IMG/VR virus record: IMGVR_UViG_3300030090_003995
Span: 23,980-87,979 of that record
Origin: a virus
Reading direction: 5' to 3' (one strand)
DNA: 64,000 nt
The translations under genes and the position numbers were made by a program. The notes beneath the pieces were generated by a model. It was given only the letters and a program-made list of their open reading frames with translations. It did not search any database and was not told where the DNA came from. Shown here piece after piece: positions 1,888 through 59,781 of the stretch (within the stretch, counting starts at the first letter, position 1; every line of letters begins with the position of its first letter).

Positions 1888-2331
1888 ATGAGTTGGTTTG
1901 ATATATTAAAAGCCCAACAAAGGTTATTTAGCGAACCCCCTTTAACAGAAGAAGAGGAAGCAGTTTTAGATGAAGGATTGGAGGAAAATCCATTCTTGAG
2001 ACCAAGGGAAGGTAAAGTCTTAGCAGCGACCGAAGACCATAAAAAGCCTAAAAAATCAAAACAATTAAAACTTCCGGGTGCGCCTATTAGAACAAAAGTT
2101 CCTATATCTGAATTTAGAGATGGTTCTAGTCCAACAGGTGATGATACAAAATTAACCGTTCAACAACAAACAAGACTGGCTCAAAAAGAACCTAGAGGGC
2201 ATTTTAAAGAATTAGCCAATGAAATGACAAGATTGGCATTACGTTCTCAAAATTCTGATGGTCAAAAACAAAAGAAATTATTAGGGCGTATGAGAATGCG
2301 ATTAGAAGAAGAAAATATACCGAGGGCTTAA
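1888..2331 (+). CDS. MSW-ILK leader protein (putative internal virion cargo)
   Basis: Starts MSWFDILK after a GGTGAT RBS. Confidence 0.7.
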   Translation: MSWFDILKAQQRLFSEPPLTEEEEAVLDEGLEENPFLRPREGKVLAATEDHKKPKKSKQLKLPGAPIRTKVPISEFRDGSSPTGDDTKLTVQQQTRLAQKEPRGHFKELANEMTRLALRSQNSDGQKQKKLLGRMRMRLEEENIPRA

Positions 2332-5500: not shown

Positions 5501-5937
5501 CTAATACATTAATGGACCAAGCAACTGCTATGGTTATGAATTACAAAGATGACGATGGTAAGATTGTTGAAATACCTGAAGATGCAGCGCCTTATTTAGA
5601 AATAGTAGAACAACGATTTAAACAGGCTAGAGATGAGGCTTTAAAGGTTCAAGCAGAAAGTGAAGATGATGAACTTCCTAAAGAGTTCCGTTCTAAATCT
5701 GGCACAACAATTAATTTTGATGAGTGGTTACAAAATATAGAATCGGCAAAGGCTGAAGCGCAATCTAAGAAGTTAGATGAAAGAAAATATGGTGAAGATA
5801 AAAAGGTTAAGAGAAAACCTAAGAGACCTGTTGTTAAATTACCAGAAACAAGAACAATTGATGAAGAGAGAGAAAGAGGAGAAAATTTGTTAGACCCTTC
5901 AATTCTAAGAAGACCTGAACAGGAGGAAGAAGAATGA
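2557..5937 (+). CDS. large, highly charged coiled-coil protein, possibly an internal head protein
   Basis: About 1126 aa, K/E/D/R-rich and helical; ATG 2557 after GGTGAG; no recognised catalytic motif. Confidence 0.7.
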   Translation: MTLLKAYLMNKRDPFTLAKAFLDVLKDEQAWREEQLGELGAKYFSDAMEFYEDELAEINGKIVENNSKIKEIRTRLAPNYTFEDKIEYEGPDGETFIRRETRGLTDEESNLERLELESAESLNNDYAEIRESVNGHLSDLTTHYTNLTGEEYDRSDENKIRLTLKGLKILADRIDDLGEIKPPDSIKQLDANLENAKKLYERSLEELKSDLQEKNAPQDIITNATAKLKRKFDTKMSTLESSRSGMSKSYESLLSQKYKLEQRIIRGKKDLERMGIDVKEYGPKYSKESDFKKPQSKPETAEEKKAREEKEEQENLERRIDLKKQALVRLAKRALEWEKQGFIPGPKYKAGRRKTTGKLDRDYARPIKSGKYKGITLKGDEVELDAKMTKLVNDSNIGVNELISQVNKLNPNLTISLPETQKTVDVKRDIRGLPIRDKDGNEIPVKFGENKPYTQEEISRAKSQEQKEYMVRMNNLGIGKGKRKVKQTAGNLKNWKEWREEFSRVVSDENLQLMRNQLNDFFKDLDPEVMRLFDKDAHSTDTTRFGLASSKEGSDGNIKWTKHVSRRKTLQILGKIFSEALRTDILSDIQKVNAEKILNAIDEELGISGGKQIREQPVADQQVTNMMELLQDFYDETQILLESDTDDEWNEEPVERLEDLTEEVAQLLQDMDEENPSQEDYVNLLIRYHLINVTIRELGRELPNQALQAKRSLREYLDSLENRYEDMYGNIADDKLQSLQRLAQDSTDSEEDKRKLEQEIRRTSTKTSWKPPKGYHDKDDTVRRRERVKLHKAELQMHIDIFKRLSEGGEVKITKPIRHPDQTDKEYAEAKRRFEPKVISGKKIPKRQGNQRPLKQLAEMVIPKFKVDMEKSRQKRLYGKILTQERIDGIRNNLVAELGRGEEVDIENFDSLYSSAVDIIGPKSYTDRYKQVKTLTGKELEQLGLEDVKEEFLARRVRGEGTDDEEFIPDSEISDADEFDAANTLMDQATAMVMNYKDDDGKIVEIPEDAAPYLEIVEQRFKQARDEALKVQAESEDDELPKEFRSKSGTTINFDEWLQNIESAKAEAQSKKLDERKYGEDKKVKRKPKRPVVKLPETRTIDEERERGENLLDPSILRRPEQEEEE

Positions 5938-6287
5938 GTTGGAAAAAGATATTAAAATTTCAATCTGACGGTTTAGATGAACATAATGTGGATGAACTTC
6001 TTGTTCATCCAATTGAGCGATTAGGTTTCCGATTACAAACGAATGAGTCATATATAGTTGGTGATAATCCAGAATCAGGAGAAGCCGGATGGAATACCGG
6101 ACAGTATTCTTTGGATTTTGCCCACACAACAGGAACGCGATATACTGTAAAAAGGACACATATACGTGCTACCCCCACATCTCCCCAATATTATATTTTT
6201 AGGGGTAATGAGGGAATTGTTGGTAAACCTTTCAATTATATAGAAGTAGTAGATTGGTTTGAACACGAAGCGGAGAGTTTATCATGA
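5934..6287 (+). CDS. MSW-ILK leader protein
   Basis: Starts MSWKKILK; ATGA overlap with the upstream gene. Confidence 0.7.
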   Translation: MSWKKILKFQSDGLDEHNVDELLVHPIERLGFRLQTNESYIVGDNPESGEAGWNTGQYSLDFAHTTGTRYTVKRTHIRATPTSPQYYIFRGNEGIVGKPFNYIEVVDWFEHEAESLS

Positions 6288-6616
6288 CGTGGTTTGAAGT
6301 AATTAAAGAAGATAGTCCGGCTTTGGCTAGTCTATCACAAAAAGAAAAAAAGAAACTCAAAAAGGTTTTGCAAGCAGCCGAACCTTCAGAATACTTTGGT
6401 CAAGACTTTACAAGAATGGGAGAATTGATTGAATTAATGAGAGAATTAGATTTGGTTAAGGGAGATAAAAAAATGCAAAAGAAAATGAAATCTATTTCTG
6501 AGCAAAATGTAGATGTTGTCGCTATGGCTGCTAAATTGCGAAAAGAATATGAAGAAATGTATAGACAACTTCGACAAATTGTATATCCTAAAAGCAAGGG
6601 GTTGAGAAAGAAATGA
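6284..6616 (+). CDS. MSW-ILK leader protein (helical)
   Basis: Starts MTWFEVIK. Confidence 0.7.
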   Translation: MTWFEVIKEDSPALASLSQKEKKKLKKVLQAAEPSEYFGQDFTRMGELIELMRELDLVKGDKKMQKKMKSISEQNVDVVAMAAKLRKEYEEMYRQLRQIVYPKSKGLRKK

Positions 6617-6876
6617 GTTGGGAAAATATAATTAAAATGAGAAGAATTATTCCTGAAGTAGAGGAAGTCATGCCCTATTATAATGGGTTAGATGAATTAC
6701 TCACTATGGTTAAAAAAGATATGGAAGAAGTTGTAAGTTTTATTATGAATGATGATTTAGAAAGGGCCGAAATTAAGTGGGATAAAATGAAAGGAGGCAT
6801 TCTCGATTTAGAAGGAACCTTTACTGGAATTAAAGACGTTAATGCGTTTATTACTAGATTATTAGGTGATGCTTAA
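6613..6876 (+). CDS. MSW-ILK leader protein
   Basis: Starts MSWENIIK. Confidence 0.7.
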   Translation: MSWENIIKMRRIIPEVEEVMPYYNGLDELLTMVKKDMEEVVSFIMNDDLERAEIKWDKMKGGILDLEGTFTGIKDVNAFITRLLGDA

Positions 6877-7022
6877 TGAGTAAAATGGATTTCGCTAAAG
6901 CGAATAAAGAACTTAGACATCATATTATTTTAATGCTTGACCATTTTGATAATCAAGATGAAGAAGGTTGGAACAAACTACTTAAAATTGCAAGATTTGT
7001 GGTGGAGGTAGATTATAAATGA
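6876..7022 (+). CDS. hypothetical protein (48 aa)
   Basis: Manual translation MSKMDFAKANKELRHH...GWNKLLKIARFVVEVDYK*; overlaps both neighbours and fills the gap exactly. Confidence 0.6.
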   Translation: MSKMDFAKANKELRHHIILMLDHFDNQDEEGWNKLLKIARFVVEVDYK

Positions 7023-7264
7023 GCGAAAATAAAGATGAAACGCTAGAAGTTCTGAAATTATTAGTGGATAAAATCCAAAAATTAGAAGAAACTGTCTATA
7101 ACAATGACAACGTATTAATGAAAGCGGGTCTTGTAAAGGTTGATAGTCCAACACCAAGTATGGGCGGTGGAGATGGGGTTATTCCTGATTCTAAGGCTAT
7201 TGCTAAGATGAGTTGGGATGAAATCAATACATTGGTTACTCGATTAGGAGGCGGAACAATATGA
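7019..7264 (+). CDS. small protein with a scaffold-like C-terminal helix
   Basis: N-terminal coiled coil; C-terminal IPDSKAIAKMSWDEINTLVTRL resembles the C-terminus of the protease-scaffold. Confidence 0.65.
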   Translation: MSENKDETLEVLKLLVDKIQKLEETVYNNDNVLMKAGLVKVDSPTPSMGGGDGVIPDSKAIAKMSWDEINTLVTRLGGGTI

Positions 7265-7779: not shown

Positions 7780-7784
7780 TTAGT

Positions 7785-10376: not shown

Positions 10377-11714
10377 ATGGCGAGCGCAACGCTTCAACAA
10401 AGTGCGACAATTAGAACAAATAATCCTTCTGATTTTCAAATAATTAAATCTGATGATTTATACATTGGTGGATATGCTTCTATTGAATTAGTAGATAAGC
10501 AAAACGATTTAATTACATTAGAAGCATTAAATGATGCTGTTAAAAAATTCATGCAAGCACCAAGATACAGAAACGTTATGAATAATCATTCAAATGTTCA
10601 AGTTGGTGAAGTAGTCAAAGAATATCGAGATAAGACAGGAAAATTATGGAAAACTGATGTTGATGATGTTGGTTTTTTTGTTGTAATAAAATTAAGAGAT
10701 GATATTGAGAAGGCTAAAGAAGTTAGTCGGGACATTAGAAAAGGTACTCTTCGTTCTTTCAGCATTGGGGGTCAAGCACTCGAAAAGCGTAAACGAGAGA
10801 ATGATGAATTAGGAAAGTTTAATGAAATTAGTAAATTGGAATTGCATGAAGTAACTATTTGTGAAAAAGGCATTAATCCAGAAGCAAAATTTGATATTCT
10901 AAAACAAGACAGTGGTGATAACATGACCGAAGTTACAAAAGCGTTAGAAGAACTAAACTCTCTCTTAAAAGAAATTAGAGGAGAAAGTGTATCAAAAGCC
11001 CCTAATCCAAAATCGGAAGAGGGATTTGAAATGCAAGAATTACCGGAAGGTGAAGAAAAAATGACAAGTGAATATTTAGACACTGAAGAAGAAACTGAAG
11101 AATCACCTGAAATGCTAGAAATGGCAGAAGGTGAAGAAGAGGAAATGATGGAATTAGCCTCAAGCGAAGAAGATGACCCTGAAAAGGAATTAAAGAGCAA
11201 AACAAGCCATACCCATGAAACACAATTAGTGGATGAGGCTGGTCTAGAAGTTGTAGTGGGTGGACAACCTTCAACAAAACATGGACAGCGTAAAGATATG
11301 GGGATTCCTGCCGGAACTGAAACCAAAAAGTCCATTTATGGTGGAGATACACCAACACTCGATTTGAGTCCTGAGAATCTTGAAAAGGCTTATGCTGAAT
11401 TTAAGGCTGAGCAAATGGAAAAAATGGCTTACAATGATATTAAGTCGTCTTTCCAAGCACGATTCGATGCTGAAGTTGCAGCAAAAGCAGATTCAATCGA
11501 GAAGGCAAACTATGACCCACGAAGTGAGGTCAACGAACTTAAAAAGCAGTTTAGTGAGTTAATTGACACACTAAAGGGTGAGAAGGAAAATGTTATCCGA
11601 AAGCAACAAGAGGCTGTTGATAACCTAAACATTCCTTCAGGTGATGATTTGGCTAAGATGGATTGGAATGAAGTCCATTTGGCTATGGCTCGACTAGAGC
11701 GCAATTTCCGCTGA
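10377..11714 (+). CDS. HK97-family prohead protease fused to an acidic/coiled-coil scaffold
   Basis: IGGYAS..VDKQND, MNNHS (His), SFSIGG (Ser), LHEVTI...NPEA; immediately upstream of the capsid gene. Confidence 0.9.
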   Translation: MASATLQQSATIRTNNPSDFQIIKSDDLYIGGYASIELVDKQNDLITLEALNDAVKKFMQAPRYRNVMNNHSNVQVGEVVKEYRDKTGKLWKTDVDDVGFFVVIKLRDDIEKAKEVSRDIRKGTLRSFSIGGQALEKRKRENDELGKFNEISKLELHEVTICEKGINPEAKFDILKQDSGDNMTEVTKALEELNSLLKEIRGESVSKAPNPKSEEGFEMQELPEGEEKMTSEYLDTEEETEESPEMLEMAEGEEEEMMELASSEEDDPEKELKSKTSHTHETQLVDEAGLEVVVGGQPSTKHGQRKDMGIPAGTETKKSIYGGDTPTLDLSPENLEKAYAEFKAEQMEKMAYNDIKSSFQARFDAEVAAKADSIEKANYDPRSEVNELKKQFSELIDTLKGEKENVIRKQQEAVDNLNIPSGDDLAKMDWNEVHLAMARLERNFR

Positions 11715-11742: not shown

Positions 11743-13107
11743 ATGGTAAAATATATTAACACTATCGCTGACCTTGAACAAGCCACTTACGGTACGTTTG
11801 GTGGAAATAGCGACATTCTGAAAAGTGGTGGGTCTTTACTCGGACTTCACACAGCACACGATACAAACGCAACAAACGCATTTGTTGGAACTGCGGCTTC
11901 AAACCTCAGTAACTTGTATAACGTAATTTATGGACAGAAAGTTTGGTCAATGCTCAATCAAGAGATTAACCCACTTTCTATTCTTCCTAAGCGACCATAC
12001 ACTTCAAGCGGTTGGCGCGTATTAATTGACCGACCTGCTGGTGGAAGTGCTGCGGCTTTTGCGATTGGAACGCAAGATATTACTGCAACTCCAACTGCTG
12101 ATATGAGCGCACCTTCAGCCGATAGTATCGGTGGTGTGAAAGAAAACCACGCTTTGAATAGTGTTGGACTTTCTGAACTATCTCCAGAATATGCGACCTT
12201 ATTTATGAGTCCTAAGACTGTTGCGCATATGTTCGGTTATTCCGAAGTTGCAGCAGAAATGGCGAAAATTGATGATGGTATCGGTGATATTCGTAACATT
12301 GTTCGTGAAGATATGGGTAAATTCCACGCTGAGGTTCAGTCCAAAATGCTTGTAATGCCTCTTGAAAATTACGACCACTCAAGTTATGCAGATATTGAAT
12401 TAAACTACACTTCATTATTGAAGATTGTAGCAAGTAGTCAAGAAATGGAGGCTATGATTGATGCAGGTATGCACGGTTCAATGGGTGGTTCTTCATCAAC
12501 AGGCGGTTTAGTAGACCAAATGAGTTATTTGTATGGAAACAATTCTCGTGATTTGGTTGCAAATGCTTACAATGAATCATATATGGATGCTTATGTCAAT
12601 TATGGTAGTGGATATGCTGCTGGCGATGTTCGAGCATTAACTCTAACTTTGCTTAATACTACTTTGCAGAACCTCCGAACAAACGGTGGTACGCCAAAGT
12701 GTATCTTAACTGGATATGATACAATTCAAGCAATTGCTGATTTGTTACAGTCCCAAGAACGATTTATGGAGCGAAAAGAAATTGTTCCTACACATAATGG
12801 TGTTCGTGGTGTAAAGGGCCGAGAAGTCGGTTTCCGAGTAGCGACATATTTCGATATTCCGCTAATTCCATGTAAAGATATGGCAAGCACAGGTGAAGCA
12901 ACAGGTAAACTAAGCGATTTATTGTTCTTAGACACTGACCATCTTTGGATGGCTGTAATGAAACCAACTCAATACTTTGAGGATGGTATTAATTCTGGAA
13001 ACCCATTCGGTGTTGGCGCACTTGGAAACAAGGCCATGTTCCGAACAATGGGCGAAACTGGCTGTACTTTCTTTAAGGGACAAGGCAAGATTACTAACGT
13101 GAACTGA
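11743..13107 (+). CDS. major capsid protein (HK97 fold)
   Basis: Position after the protease; 454 aa; YGQKVWSMLNQE, IPLIP, LLFLDTD, QGKITN patterns of archaeal tailed-virus MCPs; AGGTGA RBS. Confidence 0.85.
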   Translation: MVKYINTIADLEQATYGTFGGNSDILKSGGSLLGLHTAHDTNATNAFVGTAASNLSNLYNVIYGQKVWSMLNQEINPLSILPKRPYTSSGWRVLIDRPAGGSAAAFAIGTQDITATPTADMSAPSADSIGGVKENHALNSVGLSELSPEYATLFMSPKTVAHMFGYSEVAAEMAKIDDGIGDIRNIVREDMGKFHAEVQSKMLVMPLENYDHSSYADIELNYTSLLKIVASSQEMEAMIDAGMHGSMGGSSSTGGLVDQMSYLYGNNSRDLVANAYNESYMDAYVNYGSGYAAGDVRALTLTLLNTTLQNLRTNGGTPKCILTGYDTIQAIADLLQSQERFMERKEIVPTHNGVRGVKGREVGFRVATYFDIPLIPCKDMASTGEATGKLSDLLFLDTDHLWMAVMKPTQYFEDGINSGNPFGVGALGNKAMFRTMGETGCTFFKGQGKITNVN

Positions 13108-13960: not shown

Positions 13961-14305
13961 ATGAGTCATGCAGGATGTAGAAGTAGTGGTTTAATTACCG
14001 CAGATACGTTAGTTAATACAGGTCAATGTAAGTTAATTAGTTTTCATGGTTATAATAATCATGCGACCGATGCTTGCACAATTAAAATTTATGATAATAC
14101 TGCCGCAAGCAATCCACAAATAGCAGAAATTTATTTGCCCGGAAAATTGTCATCTGTTATGGATGATACATCAGGTGGCGACCAAGAGGCTAGGACCGCA
14201 ACGGCGGTTAATTTTGAATGTGATTTTCATGCTATTCTTTGTAGAAATGGAATTTATGTTGATGTAACAGGTGGAACACCTCGAATATTTATTGAGTTTG
14301 CATAA
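13961..14305 (+). CDS. small beta-rich putative virion protein
   Basis: AGGTGAT RBS; alternating beta-strand pattern (IKIYDN, NGIYVDVTG). Confidence 0.55.
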   Translation: MSHAGCRSSGLITADTLVNTGQCKLISFHGYNNHATDACTIKIYDNTAASNPQIAEIYLPGKLSSVMDDTSGGDQEARTATAVNFECDFHAILCRNGIYVDVTGGTPRIFIEFA

Positions 14306-14314
14306 GGTGGTTAA

Positions 14315-14689
14315 ATGGCAGCAATTAATAAAGATACTAGACTAGTTATGACGATTTTATTCGTCGGTGCAGTAAGTGGAATGAATGTGTATTTCTATGC
14401 CAATTATGGCGCAGAATTACCTTGGACACCATTAAGTCATGCTGTGTTATTTTCTCTAATTACGATTGGGTTTGTAATGGGAATTAAAGCAGTATTTGAC
14501 TTAATTATGAACGACAGGATGGAATTATGGTTACTTGATAGAAAAATTAATATGTATTGGGAAAAGCGCAAGAGAGAAGAAACTCAACGAAATAAAATTG
14601 TTGATTCTATGCGCCAATATAATATGAACCCGTATATGCAAAATAACCAAGAAGTGCCAGCAGTTTTTCTTGAAGGTATTGAGCCTTGA
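14315..14689 (+). CDS. two-TM membrane protein (holin-like topology)
   Basis: Two hydrophobic helices followed by a charged coiled-coil tail. Confidence 0.65.
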   Translation: MAAINKDTRLVMTILFVGAVSGMNVYFYANYGAELPWTPLSHAVLFSLITIGFVMGIKAVFDLIMNDRMELWLLDRKINMYWEKRKREETQRNKIVDSMRQYNMNPYMQNNQEVPAVFLEGIEP

Positions 14690-14701
14690 TGGGGAATAGA
14701 T

Positions 14702-14914
14702 GTGCTTTTAGACTTATTTGGTTTAGATGAAACGTCTGTTGCTTATGATATGACAAGAGCGCATTCTGCTGATATATTATTTCTAAAAATGAGAGCAATT
14801 ATGTGGTGTATAACAACAGGTGTTGGGGCATTATTAATTGGTAATATATGTGGAGTATTTGGAATTAATTTCTTTGGTATGACTTGGGAATGGTTAACAG
14901 GGTTGTGGCATTAA
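14702..14914 (+). CDS. small membrane protein
   Basis: Hydrophobic Gly-rich segment followed by a Trp-rich amphipathic C-terminus. Confidence 0.6.
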   Translation: MLLDLFGLDETSVAYDMTRAHSADILFLKMRAIMWCITTGVGALLIGNICGVFGINFFGMTWEWLTGLWH

Positions 14915-15270
14915 TGAGTTGGCAAGATATTTTAAAGAATGATGAAAGAAACCCTAAATTTAGGGAAGGAGATGAATTGGAGGGCTATTGGATTAGTGAT
15001 TATATTAGTGATTATATTTTTGAGGGAAATAAATTACGCTCGGGTAATAGTTGGTGGGAAGAAGCCGCTGGTGAAGATTACTTGGATAAGTTATTAAAAG
15101 AATTCATAGAAAGTGGTGAAGAATATACTAAAGAAGCAGTAGATAAATGGTTGGAGAAAAATATAAGTCAAGAAGAATTTAATAGAATGGCTAAAGAAAT
15201 TAGAGATGATGATTACGGCCCAGACTATGAAGATTTTGGACCGGTTGAAGGATATAAAGATTATTATTAG
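14914..15270 (+). CDS. MSW-ILK leader protein (acidic)
   Basis: Starts MSWQDILK at ATG 14914 (TAATG overlap). Confidence 0.7.
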   Translation: MSWQDILKNDERNPKFREGDELEGYWISDYISDYIFEGNKLRSGNSWWEEAAGEDYLDKLLKEFIESGEEYTKEAVDKWLEKNISQEEFNRMAKEIRDDDYGPDYEDFGPVEGYKDYY

Positions 15271-15279
15271 GTGATTAAA

Positions 15280-15453
15280 ATGAGTTGGTTTGATACATTA
15301 AAAATGCACTGTGGAACTAAACAGAAAGTAGATGATGATTTTGAAAAAACAAAAGGAATTGCTAGACAGTTACGGCCTGATTTCAAACCTGATTTTAAAG
15401 AAAAAGATACCAAAAAGTACGGAATTAAACATCAAATACGTAGAGGTCAATAG
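15280..15453 (+). CDS. MSW-ILK leader protein (basic)
   Basis: Starts MSWFDTLK after taggtgattaaa. Confidence 0.65.
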   Translation: MSWFDTLKMHCGTKQKVDDDFEKTKGIARQLRPDFKPDFKEKDTKKYGIKHQIRRGQ

Positions 15454-15463
15454 GTGATTTCAT

Positions 15464-16132
15464 GTGTCAGTTGTTGCAGGTTTCGCAATTGTTTGTTTAG
15501 AAGCGGCAGGTTCATTTTGGAAAAAATTTCACGCAATTAATTTTGGAGTCTATGGTGCATCAAGAGTTGGAAAAACTACTTTACATAGACAATTACGAAC
15601 AAGAGGAGAAGTACCTGAAATCAAAAAAAGAACGGTCGGTTTAGAAAGAGCAACAAGAAAACTGGTTAAAATTGATAAAGATATGCACACAATCAAAGCC
15701 GCAGATATTGGAGGAGAATCAGCATATTGGAATCTTTGGAAAAAAGATATGAGAAAAAGAAAACCAAAACACGTTATATTCATGATAGACCATCGGCATT
15801 TAGAAAGTAATGTAAATATGGATAACCAATTAGCATGGCAGTATTTTGTTGATTTAATTTGTGACCCATATTGGAGAGATGGAAAGAAAAAGAAAAGAAA
15901 AAAGGATAAAGATTATCCAAAGTCTATTGGTATATGGGCAAATAAATACGATTTATGGGGGAAAGAAAATGGATTCAACGACATTTCAAAACACCCTATT
16001 TTTGAACCATTCGCGTATGGAATGCAACGACTTAATGAAATTGGAATACCTTGTTTCAAATATGTCGTTAGTGCAAAATCCGACCCTGAAATGGTATATC
16101 GCGGAGTAATGACAATGTGTGATGATTATTAA
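15464..16132 (+). CDS. Arf/Sar1-like small GTPase (Ras superfamily)
   Basis: G1 GASRVGKT, G2 RTVG, G3 DIGGE, G4 NKYD, G5 SAK; hydrophobic N-terminal extension. Confidence 0.85.
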   Translation: MSVVAGFAIVCLEAAGSFWKKFHAINFGVYGASRVGKTTLHRQLRTRGEVPEIKKRTVGLERATRKLVKIDKDMHTIKAADIGGESAYWNLWKKDMRKRKPKHVIFMIDHRHLESNVNMDNQLAWQYFVDLICDPYWRDGKKKKRKKDKDYPKSIGIWANKYDLWGKENGFNDISKHPIFEPFAYGMQRLNEIGIPCFKYVVSAKSDPEMVYRGVMTMCDDY

Positions 16133-16142
16133 GGTGATTAAA

Positions 16143-16406
16143 ATGAGTTGGCAAGATATATTAAAGGATGATGCAAAATGGGGCAGAATCCATCAACATC
16201 TAAAAGATAAATTAGAAGAATATAAACGTGACTACCCGTCTGCAAACACTTTAAGTTTTAATAAATTTGACGAAATTTATGAAGATATTATACAGGCGGC
16301 TATTGAGGATGAACAACGTCTACAAAAATTGGCTAAATATGCAGGATTTAGTCATTTTAATCCTCAACATCAAGGAAAAAGTGATGTGGTGGCGTTTTAC
16401 TATTAG
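16143..16406 (+). CDS. MSW-ILK leader protein
   Basis: Starts MSWQDILK after taaggtgattaaa. Confidence 0.7.
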   Translation: MSWQDILKDDAKWGRIHQHLKDKLEEYKRDYPSANTLSFNKFDEIYEDIIQAAIEDEQRLQKLAKYAGFSHFNPQHQGKSDVVAFYY

Positions 16407-16415
16407 GTGATTAAT

Positions 16416-16607
16416 ATGAGTTGGGATGATATATTAAAATTAGAAACTCCCCTACAAAAACCATTGAATGAAGCGTTAAGATTGTTAGAACCAACCACGC
16501 GCTATGAGATGGATGAAAGCAAGCAACAATACCAAGATTTAAGGAATGCTATTACTAAATTTTTAGAATGGGAACAAACGTTTCTACTGAGCCAAAGAAA
16601 TAGGTGA
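16416..16607 (+). CDS. MSW-ILK leader protein
   Basis: Starts MSWDDILK after taggtgattaat. Confidence 0.7.
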   Translation: MSWDDILKLETPLQKPLNEALRLLEPTTRYEMDESKQQYQDLRNAITKFLEWEQTFLLSQRNR

Positions 16608-16612
16608 TTAAA

Positions 16613-17170
16613 ATGGGTTGGGAAGATATTCTAAAATTAAGATACAAGCCACCGAAAAAATTTGGATACGAAAGTGATGCAGATTTCAAGAGAAGATTGG
16701 CAGCATACGACCGAAAATATCAAAGTGACAAAAGTAGAGGTGTTTTAGGAACAAGAGAAGAAATTGAAGCCGATGAGCAACGTAAGAAAGATAAATTTGC
16801 TCAAAATCAAAAAGAATTAGAGGAATCATCAATTGATTGGAATAAAGCACTAAACACTATGGTTTTGCTAGAAAAAGAAGTAAAACGTAGATTTGAACCG
16901 AGAGGTAATGACCCCGGAGAAAGGATGTTACAAAATGTATTTATAAATGCGGCTAATAAACCAATGCGAGAATTAGCAGATATTTACCTCGCTCAACCTA
17001 AAGGTTCAGAAGGCGGAATAAAAGAATGGAATAGAGCAAGAAGGTATCTTGCTCAAGTTTTACTTGACCCTCGATATGTTGGTCTGTTAAATAATTTAAG
17101 ATTAGCGCGTGATGATGAGTCATTAGAAAGGTTTCTTGAAAATAATGGGTTTGGAGATGGTTCTGAATGA
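16613..17170 (+). CDS. MSW-ILK leader protein
   Basis: Starts MGWEDILK after taggtgattaaa. Confidence 0.7.
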   Translation: MGWEDILKLRYKPPKKFGYESDADFKRRLAAYDRKYQSDKSRGVLGTREEIEADEQRKKDKFAQNQKELEESSIDWNKALNTMVLLEKEVKRRFEPRGNDPGERMLQNVFINAANKPMRELADIYLAQPKGSEGGIKEWNRARRYLAQVLLDPRYVGLLNNLRLARDDESLERFLENNGFGDGSE

Positions 17171-17823
17171 GTGTTAGTTATTCACCTTCAAATTTAATTG
17201 GGATGGGCCAAGGTCAAAATTCAACAATGGGATTCACACCATTACAAATTGCTAGAATGCCCGGCCCTATTTCACCATACGAATATAAAAATATCAAAGA
17301 AAAAAAACAATTAAAGGAGATTCGTAAAGTACTCAGTCCCGAGAAAAAGAAATTTTTATTTTTAAAATACGGTTTTAAATTCAATGTTAAACATAGATGT
17401 GTTGTTTGTGGTTCATATCACGAATGGGAAGCATCAGATACAATGAGGCCACCAATTCCATTATCAGAGGTTCATAAAGGTAGACCATTAAAAGGTACAT
17501 TATGTCCTAAACACGCGTCAATGTACATTCAAATGGAGACTTTAGAACAACAAATTCTCGCAAACAATCACGGTTTAGAATTTAAAAAATACATTCCAAA
17601 GGCGAAAGTCCCTAAAATGATGCAAAGGGGTCCATTAACAGATTTATCGCCAGCAGACGTTACAACTCTAGTATCAGCAGGTTGGGTTGTTGAACCACCA
17701 AAAGGAACAAAAGAAACACCACATATGCAATATACTAGAATTATGTTGGAAGTTCAAGGGAAACTTTCACAGATACAAAAAATTATTCCTTTAATTGAGG
17801 TTGAAGAAAATGGTGAGAAGTAG
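17167..17823 (+). CDS. Zn-finger-containing hypothetical protein
   Basis: CVVC...CPKH ligands; basic, with a C-terminal helix. Confidence 0.65.
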   Translation: MSVSYSPSNLIGMGQGQNSTMGFTPLQIARMPGPISPYEYKNIKEKKQLKEIRKVLSPEKKKFLFLKYGFKFNVKHRCVVCGSYHEWEASDTMRPPIPLSEVHKGRPLKGTLCPKHASMYIQMETLEQQILANNHGLEFKKYIPKAKVPKMMQRGPLTDLSPADVTTLVSAGWVVEPPKGTKETPHMQYTRIMLEVQGKLSQIQKIIPLIEVEENGEK

Positions 17824-18463
17824 TACATTAAACTCGGCACTGGCGGATTCTCAGAATCAAAGTTTTAAGAGCATGAACAATCTCTTAACTTTGCAAGAGA
17901 ACCATGTAGAAGAATTTTTCCAATATCACGGGCCTGAATTTATGAATGCCCTTGAAAAGTTAATGGAAGATGTTGTTCAAAGAGTAGTATCAAATATGTT
18001 AGCAAGTTTGGAATTTGTTTTAAACCCAGCATCAAACCATATTACATTACAAGAAAAATGTCTTTCAGAATATCAAAAAATTACTCAAGAAAACATTGAC
18101 TTAGATATTCAAACTATTCTTGCTACGGCAGTAAATAGTGAAGTTATTCATCAACGTAAGATGGCTAAACAACAATATCTTGAAAGTCAAGGATTTAGCC
18201 CGCAAACAACTGGACAACAATATACAGTTGCTCAAGGTGTTGGAATGGGCGCAACATCCGGTGGAATGGCCGGAGGTGTAATGGGTATAAATCAAGGAAT
18301 GCAGAGTGGTTATCCAATTCCGCCTAATGGTTACGACCAAATGAATAATCCTTATTGGATTGACCCACAAACAGGCCAAATGTCATATACCCCGCCTAGT
18401 GGTGGAATTGGCTTAGGCCAAAAAATGGCTAAAGCAGCAGCATGGGCAAAGTGGCTAGTGTGA
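17810..18463 (+). CDS. coiled-coil protein with G/M/Q/P low-complexity tail and amphipathic C-terminus
   Basis: Helical N-terminal half; GMGATSGGMAGGVMG; ends KMAKAAAWAKWLV. Confidence 0.65.
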   Translation: MVRSSTLNSALADSQNQSFKSMNNLLTLQENHVEEFFQYHGPEFMNALEKLMEDVVQRVVSNMLASLEFVLNPASNHITLQEKCLSEYQKITQENIDLDIQTILATAVNSEVIHQRKMAKQQYLESQGFSPQTTGQQYTVAQGVGMGATSGGMAGGVMGINQGMQSGYPIPPNGYDQMNNPYWIDPQTGQMSYTPPSGGIGLGQKMAKAAAWAKWLV

Positions 18464-21349: not shown

Positions 21350-21754
21350 ATGTCATGGACTAATATTCTAAAAAATGAGTCTCATTTTATTTGGAATGCA
21401 GATATATTTTCTTGGTCTGATAAGCACAAAGAGTGGCTTGAAAGTTTAGATTGGGGTCAAATTAGACAATACAAAACAGGATTTCCAATTTGGCAGATAG
21501 AAAAACACTTCAATTCTCAAATTACTGACTTAAAGGGAATTATGGATAAGGCATGGGAAGCCCTTTCAGAAAATCTTGAAGATAAAAAAGAGTTACAGCA
21601 ATTAAGTGATAGTTTAGGTAATCAATATCAAGAGATGATAACAGGGATTCTTAATCATGCTAATGATGCATTTAGACAAATAGCAGGAATTCAATATGAT
21701 TTGGCAAGTCAAGATGAAGCAACAGGAGCAGTTAAACTAAAGTGGGTGGAATAA
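21350..21754 (+). CDS. MSW-ILK leader protein
   Basis: Starts MSWTNILK. Confidence 0.7.
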   Translation: MSWTNILKNESHFIWNADIFSWSDKHKEWLESLDWGQIRQYKTGFPIWQIEKHFNSQITDLKGIMDKAWEALSENLEDKKELQQLSDSLGNQYQEMITGILNHANDAFRQIAGIQYDLASQDEATGAVKLKWVE

Positions 21755-22032
21755 TGACGTGGGATACTGTTCTTAAAGTTAGAAGAAAAATAAATATGCC
21801 TCATTTAAAAAGAATTGTAGACCATATTTTACCAAACATGGTTGAAGATGAATTTGCGTTATCAGATTTAGCAAAAATGGTTACAACGACTTATTTAGAA
21901 TATAATCCTAATACTAAACGGGCGTTAAATATATCCTCTATTTTAAGTCAAATGTTACAAAATAGAGGATATGAGCAGTTTTATAAATATTCTAAGGGTC
22001 AACGTTTAACTTATTATAGGAAAGTGCAATAA
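21754..22032 (+). CDS. MSW-ILK leader protein (possible winged helix)
   Basis: Starts MTWDTVLK; three helices followed by a beta-hairpin pattern. Confidence 0.65.
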   Translation: MTWDTVLKVRRKINMPHLKRIVDHILPNMVEDEFALSDLAKMVTTTYLEYNPNTKRALNISSILSQMLQNRGYEQFYKYSKGQRLTYYRKVQ

Positions 22033-43446: not shown

Positions 43447-43862
43447 AATCTTTCAACACCTGGCGGTAAATCAGTTCCATCGGTATTTTTAGTTTTTTCG
43501 TATTTTGGTATCTGTTTTTTGTTAATTGTCTTCGGTTTTGGTGGTAAAGGTAGTTCTTCCACAATCCCTTTTTGGTCCTGTAATAGAGTTGGTGGGTCAA
43601 AACTAACAGTCGCAGATTCAAAGTATTTTTTGAATGCATCCATAACTTCTTGTGTTAGATATTCCATAGCCAAATTTTTATACAATTGACCAAATGATAT
43701 TCCATCAGCCACTTCAATTCTCTTACTCCATAAGTTATTAATCATATCAATAACTGTTATTTCCTCATACAATTCTTCAGCAACCCTTTTAGAAGTTTCA
43801 GTTAACTGCAATAATTCTCCAAATTTCCACTCTTTACTCATAATATATTCTTCAATGTTCAT
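43443..43862 (-). CDS. hypothetical protein
   Basis: ORF track; coupled to both neighbours. Confidence 0.6.
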   Translation of the reverse strand: MNIEEYIMSKEWKFGELLQLTETSKRVAEELYEEITVIDMINNLWSKRIEVADGISFGQLYKNLAMEYLTQEVMDAFKKYFESATVSFDPPTLLQDQKGIVEELPLPPKPKTINKKQIPKYEKTKNTDGTDLPPGVERL

Positions 43863-44788
43863 AACCATCCACTCCCTCTATTTAACTCTGCATCCATCGC
43901 CGCCGGACAAATACCAACATACGAACAATGCTCACATTTCTTATGAAAATAACTAGGCTTAAAATATCCATTTTCATATGAATAAATTAATTCAGCCAAG
44001 GATTTTTTCATTGCAGTTTCAGACCGCTTATTGACTTCTTCCACATACACATAATTACTAGCGGGATAATACCATCCCCAATGTGTTATTGTCCCATCCC
44101 AATCAGGGGAAGATTCCATTAGTAATTTATAATATGCCATTTCTCTTCTCATTGTTGTTTTCTTACTATCCTTCCAAACACCAGTCTTTAATTCAAAAGG
44201 AATAGAATATCCATCTTCCGTATAAACTCTATCAATGATACCTTGAAGGTGAACGATATAATCTCTACTTAAAGGGAATTTAGGGTTGTCATTTGCACCA
44301 ACAGTAATTTCTGCATTAAGCATAATTTCATTACCTTCAGGCATCCATTCTTCTATCTTATCTTGATTGCGAGCATCAACAAATCTTTGTGCCTCAAATG
44401 CGGCAATAGTATCTGTCATATCGGAATATTCAGTAATAGGAAATAATCCTGTAATATACTCGTTAACTTCTAAGAAAGACATATTTTCCATTTTATTAAT
44501 GTCTGCCTCTTTGTACATATCTTCATAAGCATCGTGGATAATAGTTCCTTTTAACATAGCCTCAGTTTGGTCTTGAGGTCGTCTATCAATATAGGAAAAT
44601 TCATATTGTTTATTACACCATTTAAAGGAACCAAGTGAAGATTTCGTAATTTTTAAAATTGGCTTATCTTCATCATCAGCCCATTCATGGTTCCATTGAT
44701 ATGTATATTCATCATCAGGTTTTGGAACAGGTCTAACCCATTCCCCATTTTCATTTTCGTGTCCGTATGTTCTTTCATAACTCATCAT
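43859..44788 (-). CDS. Cas4/RecB-like PD-(D/E)XK nuclease with Fe-S ligands
   Basis: KWC, GTIIH, GIIDRV, ELKTG, CEHCSYVGIC. Confidence 0.85.
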   Translation of the reverse strand: MMSYERTYGHENENGEWVRPVPKPDDEYTYQWNHEWADDEDKPILKITKSSLGSFKWCNKQYEFSYIDRRPQDQTEAMLKGTIIHDAYEDMYKEADINKMENMSFLEVNEYITGLFPITEYSDMTDTIAAFEAQRFVDARNQDKIEEWMPEGNEIMLNAEITVGANDNPKFPLSRDYIVHLQGIIDRVYTEDGYSIPFELKTGVWKDSKKTTMRREMAYYKLLMESSPDWDGTITHWGWYYPASNYVYVEEVNKRSETAMKKSLAELIYSYENGYFKPSYFHKKCEHCSYVGICPAAMDAELNRGSGWL

Positions 44789-45576
44789 AACCACTCTCCT
44801 AAACTTTTTTGATTTTCATCTACAATAAATTCTTTTACGTTCCAACCCATCGCTAGGAATATGGGTGACGCTTTTTGAATAATAGATTTTTGGGCATACG
44901 CATTCCAATCTACTAAAAACCTTTCATCAAACTCTTTCATCTCTTTCACCGCCACATATTTTGCTATTCGTTCTTTACCATTAGGTAGTATAAAATTTTG
45001 CGGACCATCAATATGTGAACACTCTATATAAAAATAAGAATCCGTAATTGGGTCATCGGGATTAATATGCTGATTGTAATAACATAGTCCTGCCGTTCCA
45101 CCTGATATAGATTTATATTCATCAATATTTCTTCGTAATCGACTACGTTTAACAATACCTTCTATACCAACTCGGCCCTTTCTAACATCATTATATCTGT
45201 TTTGGCAATATTCTAAAATTTCAGATTTAGATTTTTGTCCTGCCCACATTTTAAGTAACTCACCTTGAAACTCTTTTCCAACTTTATTTTCACTGATACG
45301 TTTAGTAGAATAACCAGTTACAACAAATTGGTGTTCATCTAAGTATTTACCATCTTTCCAAGAAATGAAGCCGGCATTTCTATTACGTTTAGCACCAACC
45401 CCAAGACCTTCATAATACTTTTCAAATTCTAAGGTAACTGGGTGATTTTCTAAACCCAAAAGATTTGGGAAATGTTCACGCATTTTAGAATTCAAAAGTT
45501 TACAAATCTCTTCTGCTTTATCTATACTCTCAATTGGAACATAAATTGAATCTGTGTGTGCATATACTACTTTCAT
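44785..45576 (-). CDS. polB: split family B DNA polymerase, C-terminal subunit (motif C + thumb)
   Basis: Starts MKVVYAHTDSIYV; LEFEKYY; KRNRNAG. Confidence 0.85.
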   Translation of the reverse strand: MKVVYAHTDSIYVPIESIDKAEEICKLLNSKMREHFPNLLGLENHPVTLEFEKYYEGLGVGAKRNRNAGFISWKDGKYLDEHQFVVTGYSTKRISENKVGKEFQGELLKMWAGQKSKSEILEYCQNRYNDVRKGRVGIEGIVKRSRLRRNIDEYKSISGGTAGLCYYNQHINPDDPITDSYFYIECSHIDGPQNFILPNGKERIAKYVAVKEMKEFDERFLVDWNAYAQKSIIQKASPIFLAMGWNVKEFIVDENQKSLGEWL

Positions 45577-47636: not shown

Positions 47637-48400
47637 TATACCACCACATAAGGGGCTCTTGCTACCAACAAATTCTCATTTTGCAATACAAGTAAAGAAT
47701 CATCATTAAAATGACAATTAACTAAACCAGATTTAAATGCTACATGAATCGGCCCACTATATTCTACTGTTGCATCATTACCCCAAATCGCCATAGGATT
47801 TACGCTTTCAGTATATTTTTCACGATTTCCACTTGATGAAGAAATTACCACACCATTGTTTACAACACATAATTTGTAAACCCCATGCCCGACAGATTCA
47901 CAAGATTTGATAATTGCTTGTAGGCTTTCTGCCGGAATAATAAAACCTGATGTTATTGGAAATTCTCCCCATTTAATTTCATTTACAGGTGTAACATTAA
48001 CTGAAGCCCTGAAAAAACTGTCACACGCCCCATCATTAGAATGAGAGTGATATGTTGCAAATTCCGCAGTTTTCATATCTGAAGTAAACATAGCACCATT
48101 ACCTAAATGCAAAGTAACGTTTCCATCATTAAAATTCTTAAGATAATTCTGCGCCTTAGCAATATCAATAACTGCCCAAGATTCGTTTTCTACTTCAAAG
48201 GGAACCCAATAATCTACAAACGTCTGATTGTTAGCATTAATAAAATGATACCCCCGTTTAGGGGCATCAGGTTTGGCAACAATTTTAACTAGGGTTCCCA
48301 ATTTATCAGATTTTAAACCTGTTGATGTAAACCATTTCCCCTTCAATTCTACGGCATTAAACGCATCTTGGAAGGTTGCCTTATCAAGTGTAATTTGCAT
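47636..48400 (-). CDS. pcn: PCNA-like sliding clamp
   Basis: About 254 aa with a two-domain alpha/beta pattern; near polB and RFC; ends LLVARAP. Confidence 0.65.
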   Translation of the reverse strand: MQITLDKATFQDAFNAVELKGKWFTSTGLKSDKLGTLVKIVAKPDAPKRGYHFINANNQTFVDYWVPFEVENESWAVIDIAKAQNYLKNFNDGNVTLHLGNGAMFTSDMKTAEFATYHSHSNDGACDSFFRASVNVTPVNEIKWGEFPITSGFIIPAESLQAIIKSCESVGHGVYKLCVVNNGVVISSSSGNREKYTESVNPMAIWGNDATVEYSGPIHVAFKSGLVNCHFNDDSLLVLQNENLLVARAPYVVV

Positions 48401-49242
48401 CAAAGTTCACCCGTCTGCATTTCTTCAATCGAAGTCCAAGTAACATCCCCGTCATCAATAGTTAAGAAATCAAATGATTTTCCAACTAACTCAGTGTTCG
48501 TTTTACTTGCTACAATTGTTGCAGTAGATGTTTGCTTTGTTCCTAACTTATTAGTCTTAACTTCAATCACTTGGTTCATCTTATCCATTGTAGATTCTTT
48601 GATATTTACTACACGCCCAATGGGATTCGGGTTATTATGTGCATACTCATCCTTCATGTGAGTAATAAAATATCGGTCACATTCCAAACCATCAGTAATT
48701 TTTTCAATTAGATTTTCATACTCAGTGTTCCGCTTTCCCCACTTCATAGGCATTTGTTTAACTTCTGTTGCTCTCTTATCAATACCCATAGCATACCAAC
48801 AAAGACGCAACCATCGGTCGCACCCATCAAATACAAACTTTACAGTTTTTCCTTCAGCCATGTATTCTTTAGCAATAACAATAAATGCTTCTGCTCTTCT
48901 GACTGTTCTATCTAAATCGGGAAAACCTTCTTCATCCCGAACAATAGGGTTTAGAATTTTGATATTTGGGTCAGAATTCCAGTTTGTTCTCCATGTAGGT
49001 TCACACCCATTATCAAAATCTAATACCATAACAATAGCGTCTTCATCTAATTCTTTTGGTGTTCTACAATCTAATGCTAATCCTGATTTTCCTGTCTTAG
49101 CATCACCGTAAATTAAACAACAGAGGTGCGCCCTTTGTCTTTCTAAGAGTGCCTCTAATTCTTGAGTAACTTCTGCTTTAATTATTTCTAATAGATTTTC
49201 TTTTGACACCGCTTGTGTCGTTGTTTGACTTGCCCAACTCAT
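48400..49242 (-). CDS. Sak4/RadB-like RecA-fold ATPase (AAA_24-like)
   Basis: IYGDAKTGKS, VLDFDNG, FVFDG, FITH. Confidence 0.75.
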   Translation of the reverse strand: MSWASQTTTQAVSKENLLEIIKAEVTQELEALLERQRAHLCCLIYGDAKTGKSGLALDCRTPKELDEDAIVMVLDFDNGCEPTWRTNWNSDPNIKILNPIVRDEEGFPDLDRTVRRAEAFIVIAKEYMAEGKTVKFVFDGCDRWLRLCWYAMGIDKRATEVKQMPMKWGKRNTEYENLIEKITDGLECDRYFITHMKDEYAHNNPNPIGRVVNIKESTMDKMNQVIEVKTNKLGTKQTSTATIVASKTNTELVGKSFDFLTIDDGDVTWTSIEEMQTGEL

Positions 49243-54011: not shown

Positions 54012-54113
54012 CTACATCATCTCCAATACAATATTTACAAAGAATGCTAAACTGCCTAGACAGTAAAAACATACTCGCGAATAAAACATAACATTCTTTT
54101 TCGCATCACTCAC
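54012..54113 (-). CDS. hydrophobic micro-protein (33 aa)
   Basis: Manual translation MSDAKKNVMFYSRVCFYCLGSLAFFVNIVLEMM*; GTG overlaps the ligase stop. Confidence 0.45.
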   Translation of the reverse strand: MSDAKKNVMFYSRVCFYCLGSLAFFVNIVLEMM

Positions 54114-58249: not shown

Positions 58250-58251
58250 AA

Positions 58252-59779: not shown

Positions 59780-59781
59780 AC

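What the first reader, a model, noticed from the sequence alone, without database searches (positions are those of the whole stretch)
14911..16636. Leader genes behave like DNA cassettes with a repeated stop-RBS-leader junction
Seen: near-identical junctions of about 35 nt: taggtgattaaaatgagttggtttgatacattaaaa (15268), taaggtgattaaaatgagttggcaagatatattaaag (16130), taggtgattaatatgagttgggatgatatattaaaa (16404), taggtgattaaaatgggttgggaagatattctaaaa (16601). The cassettes sit as tandem runs that interrupt another module on both sides of the GTPase. Inference: the repeat gives microhomology for gain, loss and shuffling of cargo genes, possibly through the virus's own Sak4-like annealing protein. 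This would be an integrase-free cassette array.
Basis: partly seen in the sequence, partly recalled or inferred. Interest (0 to 1): 0.7.

Follow-up and report, generated by a model that had tools for sequence, protein, structure and literature searches.

The report
Leader-bounded swappable gene cassettes, archaeal virus
In this ocean archaeal virus, small accessory genes that all begin with the same eight-residue peptide are added, dropped and moved between near-identical strains, with the DNA joints lying inside that shared start sequence and no integrase gene detected in the genome.

Summary
Observation confirmed. Four 35-43-nt junctions (stop, GGTGAT ribosome site, ATG, leader MSWxDILK) lie at 15268, 16130, 16404 and 16601; a fifth leader lies at 14914. 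Chance expectation is 0.03.

The window is a magrovirus-like archaeal tailed virus. Most relatives have the core order E-GTPase-H with nothing between. In 153 related loci, 30 of 42 inserted ORFs carry the tag, against 0 of 1242 core ORFs.

Strains with 95-100% identical GTPase carry different cassette sets:
- T1 (366 nt) is absent in L203; the flanks share only aATGAGTTGG.
- T3+T4 (471 nt) are absent in L203 and in contigs of four runs from four studies. The joint lies in the repeat.
- T4 and T1 homologues sit on the opposite side of the GTPase in L205 and L214.

Its synonymous-site test is negative (p=0.33). The stop-SD half of the junction is generic, equally common before untagged genes.

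Best reading: the leader is a peptide tag, probably for capsid targeting and cleavage. Its codons also act as short homology for recombination. No integrase was found; a Sak4-like gene is present, but its role is untested.

Closest known systems are T4 PeSL cassettes and the T-even internal-protein locus. The scan noted the same tag system earlier in other magrovirus genomes.

The parts
14702..14914 (+). core gene E (small membrane protein), upstream anchor of slot E|GTPase
   Evidence: Conserved next to the GTPase in 91 distinct configurations, 83 with nothing between.
14914..15270 (+). cassette T1 (118 aa, MSWQDILK leader); its ATG overlaps the stop of E and it has no GGTGAT site
   Evidence: Absent in L203 and run X4: precise 366-nt indel with a 10-nt overlap. 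An 86% aa / 92% nt homologue lies downstream of the GTPase in L214.
15268..15303 (+). junction 1: TAG stop fused to GGTGAT SD, ATG, leader codons of T2
15280..15453 (+). cassette T2 (57 aa, MSWFDTLK)
   Evidence: Homologues in L203 (91%), L204 and L205, with different neighbours.
15464..16132 (+). core gene: Ras/Arf-like small GTPase, used as the anchor to fetch relatives
   Evidence: Weak Roc/Ras/Arf Pfam hits, below cut-offs. 170 viral and 206 metagenome relatives.
16130..16166 (+). junction 2: GTPase TAA stop, GGTGAT SD, ATG, leader of T3
   Evidence: The same stop-SD-ATGAGT precedes core gene H directly in L002. Left end of the 471-nt indel.
16143..16406 (+). cassette T3 (87 aa, MSWQDILK)
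   Evidence: Absent from L203 and from contigs of X4, X14, X16 and X18.
16404..16439 (+). junction 3: TAG, GGTGAT, ATG, leader of T4
16416..16607 (+). cassette T4 (63 aa, MSWDDILK)
   Evidence: A 90% aa / 94% nt homologue sits upstream of T2 and the GTPase in L205. Homology runs from 16408 to 16621, from one junction to the next.
16601..16636 (+). junction 4: TAG, GGTGAT, ATG, leader of T5; right end of the 471-nt indel
16613..17170 (+). cassette T5 (185 aa, MGWEDILK); its stop overlaps the ATG of H
   Evidence: Follows the GTPase directly in L203 (99% aa). Six homologue clusters at 43-97% identity all keep the tag.
17167..17823 (+). core gene H, downstream anchor of slot GTPase|H
   Evidence: Homology with relatives resumes at 17165-17181.
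21350..22032 (+). two more tagged cassettes (134 aa MSWTNILK, 92 aa MTWDTVLK) in a third slot, after core gene K
   Evidence: the slot is empty or filled differently in relatives.
1888..2331 (+). tagged gene (147 aa, MSWFDILK) after the portal gene, with GGTGATTAA SD
5934..6876 (+). three consecutive tagged genes (117, 110 and 87 aa)
10377..11714 (+). prohead protease-scaffold protein. F.ILK lies before the protease domain (10434-10448) and FDILK after it (10890-10904). A tag-like KMDWNEVH lies 18 residues from the C-end (11658-11675).
   Evidence: Pfam S78. Motifs are invariant or conserved in relatives.
11743..13107 (+). HK97-type major capsid protein with conserved [ILV][IL]K at residues about 25-28 (11812-11823)
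7019..7264 (+). 81-aa protein whose C-terminal part (KMSWDEIN, 7208-7225) copies the scaffold C-terminal motif
48400..49242 (-). Sak4-like candidate single-strand annealing protein
   Evidence: phrog_124 E 2e-6. AAA_24 at 26.4-27.1 bits against a cut-off of 27.
43859..44794 (-). PD-(D/E)XK nuclease, possible resection partner
   Evidence: PF12705 E 1.3e-15.

Best explanation
The five genes around the GTPase are accessory cassettes of a magrovirus-like archaeal tailed virus. Each is a promoterless unit made of ATG, the leader MSWxDILK, unrelated cargo, a stop and the next ribosome site, set between core genes of the late operon. The repeated junction is the product of two ordinary constraints: a strong GGTGAT Shine-Dalgarno site fused to the upstream stop, used by many late genes, and the codons of a conserved N-terminal peptide. 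The peptide is most likely a capsid-targeting and cleavage tag. Its core copies a conserved motif near the scaffold C-terminus, and its ILK end matches conserved sites at the protease borders and the capsid N-terminus. This part is inferred. Because the leader codons recur as direct repeats of 10-35 nt within arrays and between co-infecting genomes, recombination inside them deletes, inserts and relocates whole cassettes in frame. The outcome is shown by comparison; the recombination itself was not observed. The enzymes are unknown. General homology-directed or annealing recombination, for example the virus's Sak4-like protein with its PD-(D/E)XK nuclease, is the inferred route. No integrase is present.
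For: Tag census: 18-23 tagged + strand ORFs in the 88-kb genome, with cargo not paralogous. In the fetched loci, 632 tagged ORFs fall into 335 cargo clusters. Accessory status: across 153 loci the slots C|D, E|G, G|H and H|I are occupied in 29 of 420 distinct configurations, 17 of them in G|H. Of 42 inserted ORFs, 30 are tagged, against 0 of 1242 core ORFs. Breakpoints: window against L203 (GTPase 100% aa, flanks 95-98% nt) shows T1 missing with flanks sharing only aATGAGTTGG, and T3+T4 missing with a chimeric junction. The joint 16129->16601 is present in contigs of 4 runs from 4 studies. The joint 14912->15279 has 10 letters fitting both sides. In X16 the T1 cargo is replaced by 639 other letters between 14936 and 15268. 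Loose ends pile up at the leader edges. Relocation: T4 lies upstream of the GTPase in L205 and T1 downstream in L214, each bounded by junctions. Tagged families have many neighbour contexts, e.g. 10 contexts for 16 members. Selection on the peptide: T5 homologues down to 43% identity keep the tag. Tag function: the scaffold C-terminal M[SD]W.[DE][IVL] is conserved in 39 relatives. Only one M.W.[DEN][ILV] elsewhere in six frames is neither an N-terminal tag nor one of the two C-terminal scaffold-type copies. FDILK and F.ILK are invariant at the protease borders, and [IL]LK is conserved in the capsid N-terminus. There are no integrase or resolvase matches. Sak4-like, PD-(D/E)XK and ERCC4 genes are present.
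Against: There is no excess synonymous identity among the clustered leaders: 29/43 against 264/422 for other leader pairs, permutation p 0.33. The AGT serine bias is a general codon-2 purine preference, since untagged genes use AGT in 5 of 7 cases. Only ATA isoleucine (8/14 against 20%, p 0.002) is left over. Because every cassette carries the leader, alignments must end there wherever the true crossover lay, and selection for intact ORFs would also favour precise borders. Whole-slot replacement can be explained by crossovers in the conserved flanking genes alone. 12 of 42 inserted ORFs lack the tag. Nothing shows that the tag is cleaved, that cargo is packaged, or which recombinase acts. All relatives are metagenome contigs.
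Confidence: 0.7

Rival explanations
1. The leader has no mechanical role. Cassette differences arise from ordinary homologous recombination in the long conserved flanking core genes (E, GTPase, H), plus rare illegitimate events. Selection for intact, tagged, translatable ORFs makes the surviving borders look precise.
For: Flanks are 92-98% identical over hundreds of bases and would dominate recombination. There is no synonymous-site excess in the leaders. The stop-SD half of the junction is generic.
Against: It does not explain partial changes inside an array where both retained neighbours are cassettes (T1 lost and T2 kept; T3+T4 lost and T5 kept). It does not explain the 10-nt overlap and the chimeric junction, or the movement of T1 and T4 across the GTPase with junction-to-junction homology.
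Confidence: 0.15
2. Losses only: replication slippage or microhomology-mediated deletion between direct leader repeats removes cassettes. Gains come by unrelated routes, so this is not a two-way cassette system.
For: The two cleanest events are indels between direct repeats 366 and 471 nt apart, with overlaps of 10 nt and of about 13-30 nt. Their direction cannot be told.
Against: The same cargo occurs in different slots and neighbourhoods. At least 15 different cargoes occupy the one G|H slot. In X16 the cargo is replaced between two leader edges.
Confidence: 0.1
3. The variants are metagenome assembly chimeras formed at the repeated junction.
For: All relatives are assembled contigs, and repeats can misjoin contigs.
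Against: The longest exact shared stretch is 19 nt, shorter than usual final k-mers and than the 31-letter words of the run index (k-mer sizes of the assemblies are my own knowledge, not checked). The same joint recurs in four runs from four studies and in independent assemblies. Variant flanks differ by 2-8% in sequence, so they are different strains.
Confidence: 0.02
4. A site-specific recombinase, integron-like and viral or host-encoded, recognises the junction.
For: Promoterless cassettes in tandem with a repeated border resemble an integron array.
Against: No tyrosine or serine recombinase match in the record. The borders are direct repeats of coding sequence, with no attC-like inverted repeats or hairpins. 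Crossover positions vary within the leader, from ATG+7 to +36.
Confidence: 0.03

Closest known systems
PeSL + ORFan cassettes of T4-type phages (Arbiol et al. 2010, PMC2839356; PMC4122927)
   Same: Short conserved motifs flank accessory ORFs in plastic regions between core genes. Insertions, deletions and replacements between close relatives have their ends in the motifs. The proposed mechanism is homologous recombination at the motifs without an integrase.
   Different: PeSLs are non-coding early promoter plus stem-loop elements. Here the repeat is a ribosome site plus the first eight codons of the gene, in a late operon of an archaeal virus, with no promoter or hairpin. Excised minicircles, shown for PeSLs, could not be looked for.
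Capsid targeting sequence (CTS) and polymorphic internal-protein locus of T-even phages (Rao and Black 2010, PMC3012670, citing Repoila et al. 1994)
   Same: A short conserved N-terminal peptide sits on otherwise diverse small proteins, and the locus is highly variable between relatives. From my own knowledge, the T4 CTS ends at the prohead-protease cleavage site. Here the tag ends in the ILK motif conserved at head-protein borders.
   Different: There is no sequence similarity to the T4 CTS. The protease family differs (S78 here). There are hundreds of cargo families rather than a handful, scattered over several slots. Packaging, cleavage and injection are not shown here.
Integron gene cassettes
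   Same: Promoterless single-gene units in tandem arrays with repeated borders, drawn from a large shared pool.
   Different: No IntI-type integrase. No attC hairpin sites. The border is a translated direct repeat, and each cassette brings its own ribosome site and protein tag.
Encapsulin cargo-loading peptides
   Same: In principle, a short terminal peptide addresses unrelated proteins to the inside of an HK97-fold shell (own knowledge; encapsulin-virus link in PMC13669383, listed).
   Different: From my own knowledge, those peptides are usually C-terminal, unrelated in sequence and not cleaved. No cassette shuffling has been described for them.

Membership tests
Short-repeat-mediated modular shuffling (PeSL type) | Accessory ORFs flanked by copies of one short conserved motif | tested here: met
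   4 copies of a 43-nt family plus a fifth leader.
Short-repeat-mediated modular shuffling (PeSL type) | Indel, replacement and relocation ends between close relatives lie in the motif | tested here: met
Short-repeat-mediated modular shuffling (PeSL type) | The motif is a promoter plus stem-loop regulatory element | tested here: not met
   Stop + SD + coding leader. No terminator or promoter enrichment and no hairpins. Archaeal promoters are not covered by the scan.
Short-repeat-mediated modular shuffling (PeSL type) | Excised circular cassette intermediates | not testable with these tools
   Needs inverse PCR or raw reads from infected cells. Only contigs were available.
T4-type CTS-tagged internal proteins | Conserved N-terminal peptide of about 10 aa on unrelated proteins | tested here: met
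T4-type CTS-tagged internal proteins | The tag ends at the prohead-protease cleavage motif and is removed | tested here: inconclusive
   The same [F/W]..ILK motif is conserved at the protease-domain borders and the capsid N-terminus. Cleavage itself was not observed.
T4-type CTS-tagged internal proteins | Proteins packaged in the head and injected | not testable with these tools
   Needs virion proteomics.
T4-type CTS-tagged internal proteins | Sequence homology to the T4 CTS, IP genes or gp21 | tested here: not met
   No Pfam or PHROG hit for the cargo. The protease is S78. The tag is unlike the T4 CTS (own knowledge of that sequence).
Integron | IntI tyrosine recombinase next to the array | tested here: not met
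   PF00589 and PF00239: no match in the 88-kb record.
Integron | attC imperfect inverted repeats at cassette ends | tested here: not met
   Only direct repeats lie at the borders.
Magrovirus (Poseidoniales tailed viruses) | HK97 structural module related to haloviruses, plus its own replication set (PolB, RFC, primase, ligase, chaperonin) | tested here: met
   compared with the description in PMC5434244. No named magrovirus record was available for direct comparison.

The most novel reading that the evidence does not exclude
The eight-codon leader is a dual-use element: a protein address and cleavage label, and also the DNA recombination site of an integrase-free cassette system. Any ORF captured behind it would at once be translated late, loaded into the capsid and made exchangeable. 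That would give abundant ocean archaeal viruses a community-wide pool of hundreds of deliverable effector genes, which they rearrange on the time scale of strain divergence.
Probability: 0.4. Interest if true: 0.8.

Novelty: new variant of a known kind. Interest (0 to 1): 0.62.

Why it matters
Magroviruses are among the most abundant archaeal viruses in the surface ocean, and most of their genes are unannotated. The magrovirus papers searched here mention none of the terms used for this: N-terminal, motif, GTPase, cassette, hypervariable, accessory.

The result gives a simple rule for sorting their late genes into core and exchangeable accessory genes. It also shows a concrete route by which the accessory genes turn over between strains that are otherwise 95-100% identical.

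If the tag is a capsid address, the cassettes are probably virion-delivered proteins, and candidate counter-defence factors against uncultured Poseidoniales hosts. The leader would then be a natural handle for loading foreign proteins into an archaeal virus head.

More generally, this extends motif-guided modular shuffling from non-coding regulatory motifs in T4-type phages to a translated leader in archaeal viruses.

Tried and rejected
Cargo annotation led nowhere.
- Pfam and PHROGs gave no credible hit for any of the tagged cargoes tested.
- The ESM Atlas gave nothing for T5.
- The AlphaFold model of T5 is low-confidence (pLDDT 67). It suggests a short helix at residues 3-10 followed by an 11-residue coil, which I do not rely on.

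Searches for cargo relatives were mostly empty.
- Back-translated scans of IMG/VR with T5, T1 or the T5 alignment found no relatives.
- T1 has only 2 homologue clusters and T5 six among 5.8 billion proteins.

The synonymous-site test was rejected as evidence for DNA-level homogenisation. The AGT serine excess (p 2e-5 against genome usage) vanishes against the codon-2 background. Clustered leaders are no more alike than dispersed ones.

The idea that the whole 35-nt junction is cassette-specific was rejected. Paralogy and tandem duplication of cassettes were rejected: no cargo pair scores below E 0.009. Integron and assembly-artefact readings were rejected.

Literature: Repoila et al. 1994 is not held. 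A motif text search returned only unrelated peptide papers.

Coverage gaps in the laid contigs are not used as evidence; only contigs that bridge a joint are.
Full report
**What is there.** Window 14911-16636 lies in the late, + strand structural operon of an 87,979-bp viral contig (34.5% GC, rated 93% complete).
- The operon encodes portal, prohead protease-scaffold, HK97-type capsid and tail-tube proteins.
- The opposite strand encodes a split PolB, RFC, archaeal primase, ATP-dependent ligase, a thermosome-like chaperonin and TFIIB.
- The capsid protein's only annotated relatives are tailed viruses of haloarchaea and methanogens, at about 30% identity.
- This matches the published description of magroviruses (PMC5434244). 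No named magrovirus record was available for direct comparison.

**The observation.** The four junctions are real and lie where stated.
- GGTGATTAAAATGAGTTGG occurs four times with at most one mismatch, against 0.03 expected.
- The repeat finder reports one family of 4 x 43 nt.
- Each junction consists of the stop of the upstream ORF fused to a GGTGAT Shine-Dalgarno site, a 4-nt spacer, ATG, and the codons of M-S/G-W-x-D-I/T-L-K.
- A fifth leader at 14914 overlaps the stop of the upstream gene and has no GGTGAT.
- The genome holds 18 ORFs with the strict tag and 23 with a slightly wider pattern. All are on the + strand, and 11 lie in the window.
- Their cargo parts are not detectably related to one another.

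**What the repeat is made of.**
- The stop+GGTGAT half is generic. The same GGTGATTAAA(A)ATG precedes the capsid gene, the gene after it and the tail-tube gene.
- In 201 related loci the stop-fused site is as common before untagged genes (9.6%) as before tagged ones (9.3%). A full GGTGA site is found before 22% and 21% respectively.
- The leader half is kept by selection on the peptide. T5 homologues down to 43% identity all begin MSW[AE][DEN][IV]LK.
AGT serine looks enriched against genome usage (11/13 against 27%), but untagged genes also prefer AGT and a purine at codon 2 (5/7; 36/44).
- Clustered leaders share codons no more than dispersed ones: 29/43 against 264/422, permutation p 0.33.
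- Two small residues remain. ATA isoleucine is used 8 times in 14, against 20% in the genome (p 0.002). The T1 and T3 leaders are 32/35 identical, including the rarer AAG lysine codon and three codons beyond the tag.

**Cassette behaviour among relatives.** I used the GTPase as an anchor to fetch 80 IMG/VR loci and 80 metagenome loci.
- In most of them the order is C-D-E-GTPase-H-I with nothing between.
- After removing duplicates, slots C|D, E|G, G|H and H|I are occupied in 3/80, 8/91, 17/81 and 1/73 distinct configurations. D|E is never occupied.
- 30 of 42 inserted ORFs carry the tag, against 0 of 1242 core ORFs. Tagged genes are therefore the main accessory class of this module, and G|H is a hot spot with at least 15 different cargoes.
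- Backbones with 95-100% identical GTPase differ in content:

| Locus | Arrangement |
|---|---|
| window | E / T1 T2 / G / T3 T4 T5 / H |
| L203 | C [78 aa, tagged] D E / T2 [125 aa] / G / T5 / H |
| L205 | E / [92 aa] T4 T2 / G / [88 aa] / H |
| L214 | G / [126 aa] T1 [121 aa] |
| L207 | E / G / [58 aa][62 aa] / H |
| L002 / L212 | no insertions |

**Breakpoints.**
- Against L203 (flanks 95-98% nt identical), the T1 indel is exactly 366 nt. The left flank matches up to ...cattaATGAGTTGG and the right flank from aaaATGAGTTGG onward, so only aATGAGTTGG is shared.
- The T3+T4 indel joins junction 16130 to junction 16601. The L203 junction is a chimera: ATGAGT as in T3/T4, then GAAGATATTCTAAAA as in T5.
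- Contigs of four runs from four studies were laid on 14300-17900. All four contain the joint 16129->16601 (471 nt skipped).
- X4 contains 14912->15279 (366 skipped, 10 letters fitting both sides).
- X16 replaces 14937-15267 with 639 other letters.
- Loose ends pile up at 16131-16134, 16165/16171, 15268, 14936, 16603 and 16629-16635, which are the edges of the leaders.
- T4 DNA (16408-16621, 94% identity) lies upstream of T2 in L205. T1 DNA (14913-15307, 92%) lies downstream of the GTPase in L214. In both, homology runs from one junction into the next.
- Across 3,603 ORFs of 282 loci, tagged families occur with many different neighbours, for example 10 contexts for 16 members.

**Limits of that inference.**
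- Every cassette carries the leader, so alignments must end there wherever the true crossover was.
- Selection for intact ORFs favours precise borders.
- Exchange of a whole slot needs only crossovers in the long conserved flanks.
- The cases that do need the leader are the two partial indels inside arrays and the two relocations.
- Assembly artefacts are unlikely. The longest exact shared stretch is 19 nt, and the joints recur in independent studies and assemblies.

**Mechanism.**
- No tyrosine or serine recombinase is encoded.
- The borders have no hairpins or attC-like inverted repeats, and there is no promoter or terminator signal.
- The virus encodes a Sak4-like protein (phrog_124 E 2e-6; AAA_24 at its cut-off), a PD-(D/E)XK nuclease and an ERCC4 nuclease.
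- I infer homology-directed or annealing recombination between leader repeats. Within one genome this gives deletions. Between co-infecting genomes it gives gain, replacement and relocation.
- It is established that phage annealing proteins can use short, imperfect homology (own knowledge). It is not shown for this virus.

**Why the leader exists (inferred, but with sequence support).**
- The tag core recurs internally only twice in the genome, each time 18 residues from a C-terminus: in the scaffold (KMDWNEVH) and in an 81-aa protein (KMSWDEIN). There is just one other match in all six frames.
- The scaffold copy is conserved as M[SD]W.[DE][IVL] in 39 relatives.
- FDILK is invariant at the end of the protease domain, with conservation stopping right after K. 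F.ILK precedes the domain. [ILV][IL]K is conserved at capsid residues about 25-28.
- The simplest reading is that the tag mimics the scaffold's shell-binding motif and ends in the prohead-protease cleavage site, as the T4 capsid targeting sequence does.
- Earlier first-reader notes on this genome proposed these motifs. Here I checked their conservation, not their function.

**Comparison and novelty.** The cassette logic is that of PeSL+ORFan cassettes in T4-type phages. The tag logic is that of the T-even internal-protein locus. Three things differ:
- the recombining motif is translated;
- the host domain is Archaea;
- the cargo pool is very large, with 335 clusters in this sample.

The magrovirus papers searched contain none of the terms I looked for (N-terminal, motif, GTPase, cassette, hypervariable, accessory). 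Follow-up agents of this scan reached similar readings on other magrovirus genomes; those are not independent evidence. I rate it a new variant of a known kind.

Noticed in passing
window 11658-11675 and 7208-7225: The scaffold C-terminus and an 81-aa ORF each carry an internal copy of the tag core (KMDWNEVH / KMSWDEIN), exactly 18 residues from the C-end. The scaffold copy is conserved in 39 relatives. Only one other match exists in all six frames outside N-terminal tags.
   Followed up: partly
window 10434-10448, 10890-10904, 11812-11823: F.ILK and FDILK bracket the protease domain and are invariant in relatives, with conservation ending right after K. The capsid N-terminus has a conserved [IL]LK. 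These are candidate Lys-specific maturation sites matching the end of the tag.
   Followed up: partly
L203:4612-4989, L204:3089-3475, L208:532-936, L001:4148-4696; L001:5768-5959, L206:1156-1347, L207:5862-6050: Two accessory families without the tag share the same slots in close relatives. MREVRKSIY... (125-182 aa) lies just before the GTPase. MYSGRFAKT... (62-63 aa, Cys-rich) lies just before gene H.
   Followed up: no
window 14913-14947 and 16142-16176: The T1 and T3 leaders are 32/35 nt identical, including the rarer AAG Lys codon and three codons beyond the tag. This hints that these two leaders share recent DNA ancestry although their cargoes are unrelated.
   Followed up: no
L082:3355-3780 (genome 23355-23780, just upstream of the window): The tagged WPSAY-domain protein (some hits carry PF19197) has more than 1000 homologues. 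These occur with this tag, with variants such as MTLWFEELKK, with a different leader MxFxEWxEL, or with none. The same cargo thus occurs behind different leaders.
   Followed up: partly
window 7776-10340 and 54113-55702: There are two ATP-dependent DNA ligase genes. One is an 854-aa form inside the head module directly before the prohead protease. The other is a standard three-domain form in the replication module.
   Followed up: no
window 58770-60354 and 60335-61315, 56687-58291: ThiF/E1-like and JAB-like genes lie close together, next to a TFIIB homologue and a thermosome-like chaperonin. This may be a ubiquitin-like modification pair in an archaeal virus.
   Followed up: no
window 49721-49812 (-): tRNA-Ser(UGA) is predicted inside the 404-aa ORF 49528-50742 on the same strand. 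Either the ORF is spurious or mis-started, or the tRNA call is false.
   Followed up: no
window 44785-45576 and 45820-47475 (-): The family-B DNA polymerase is split into two ORFs, separated by an 84-aa ORF (45573-45827).
   Followed up: no
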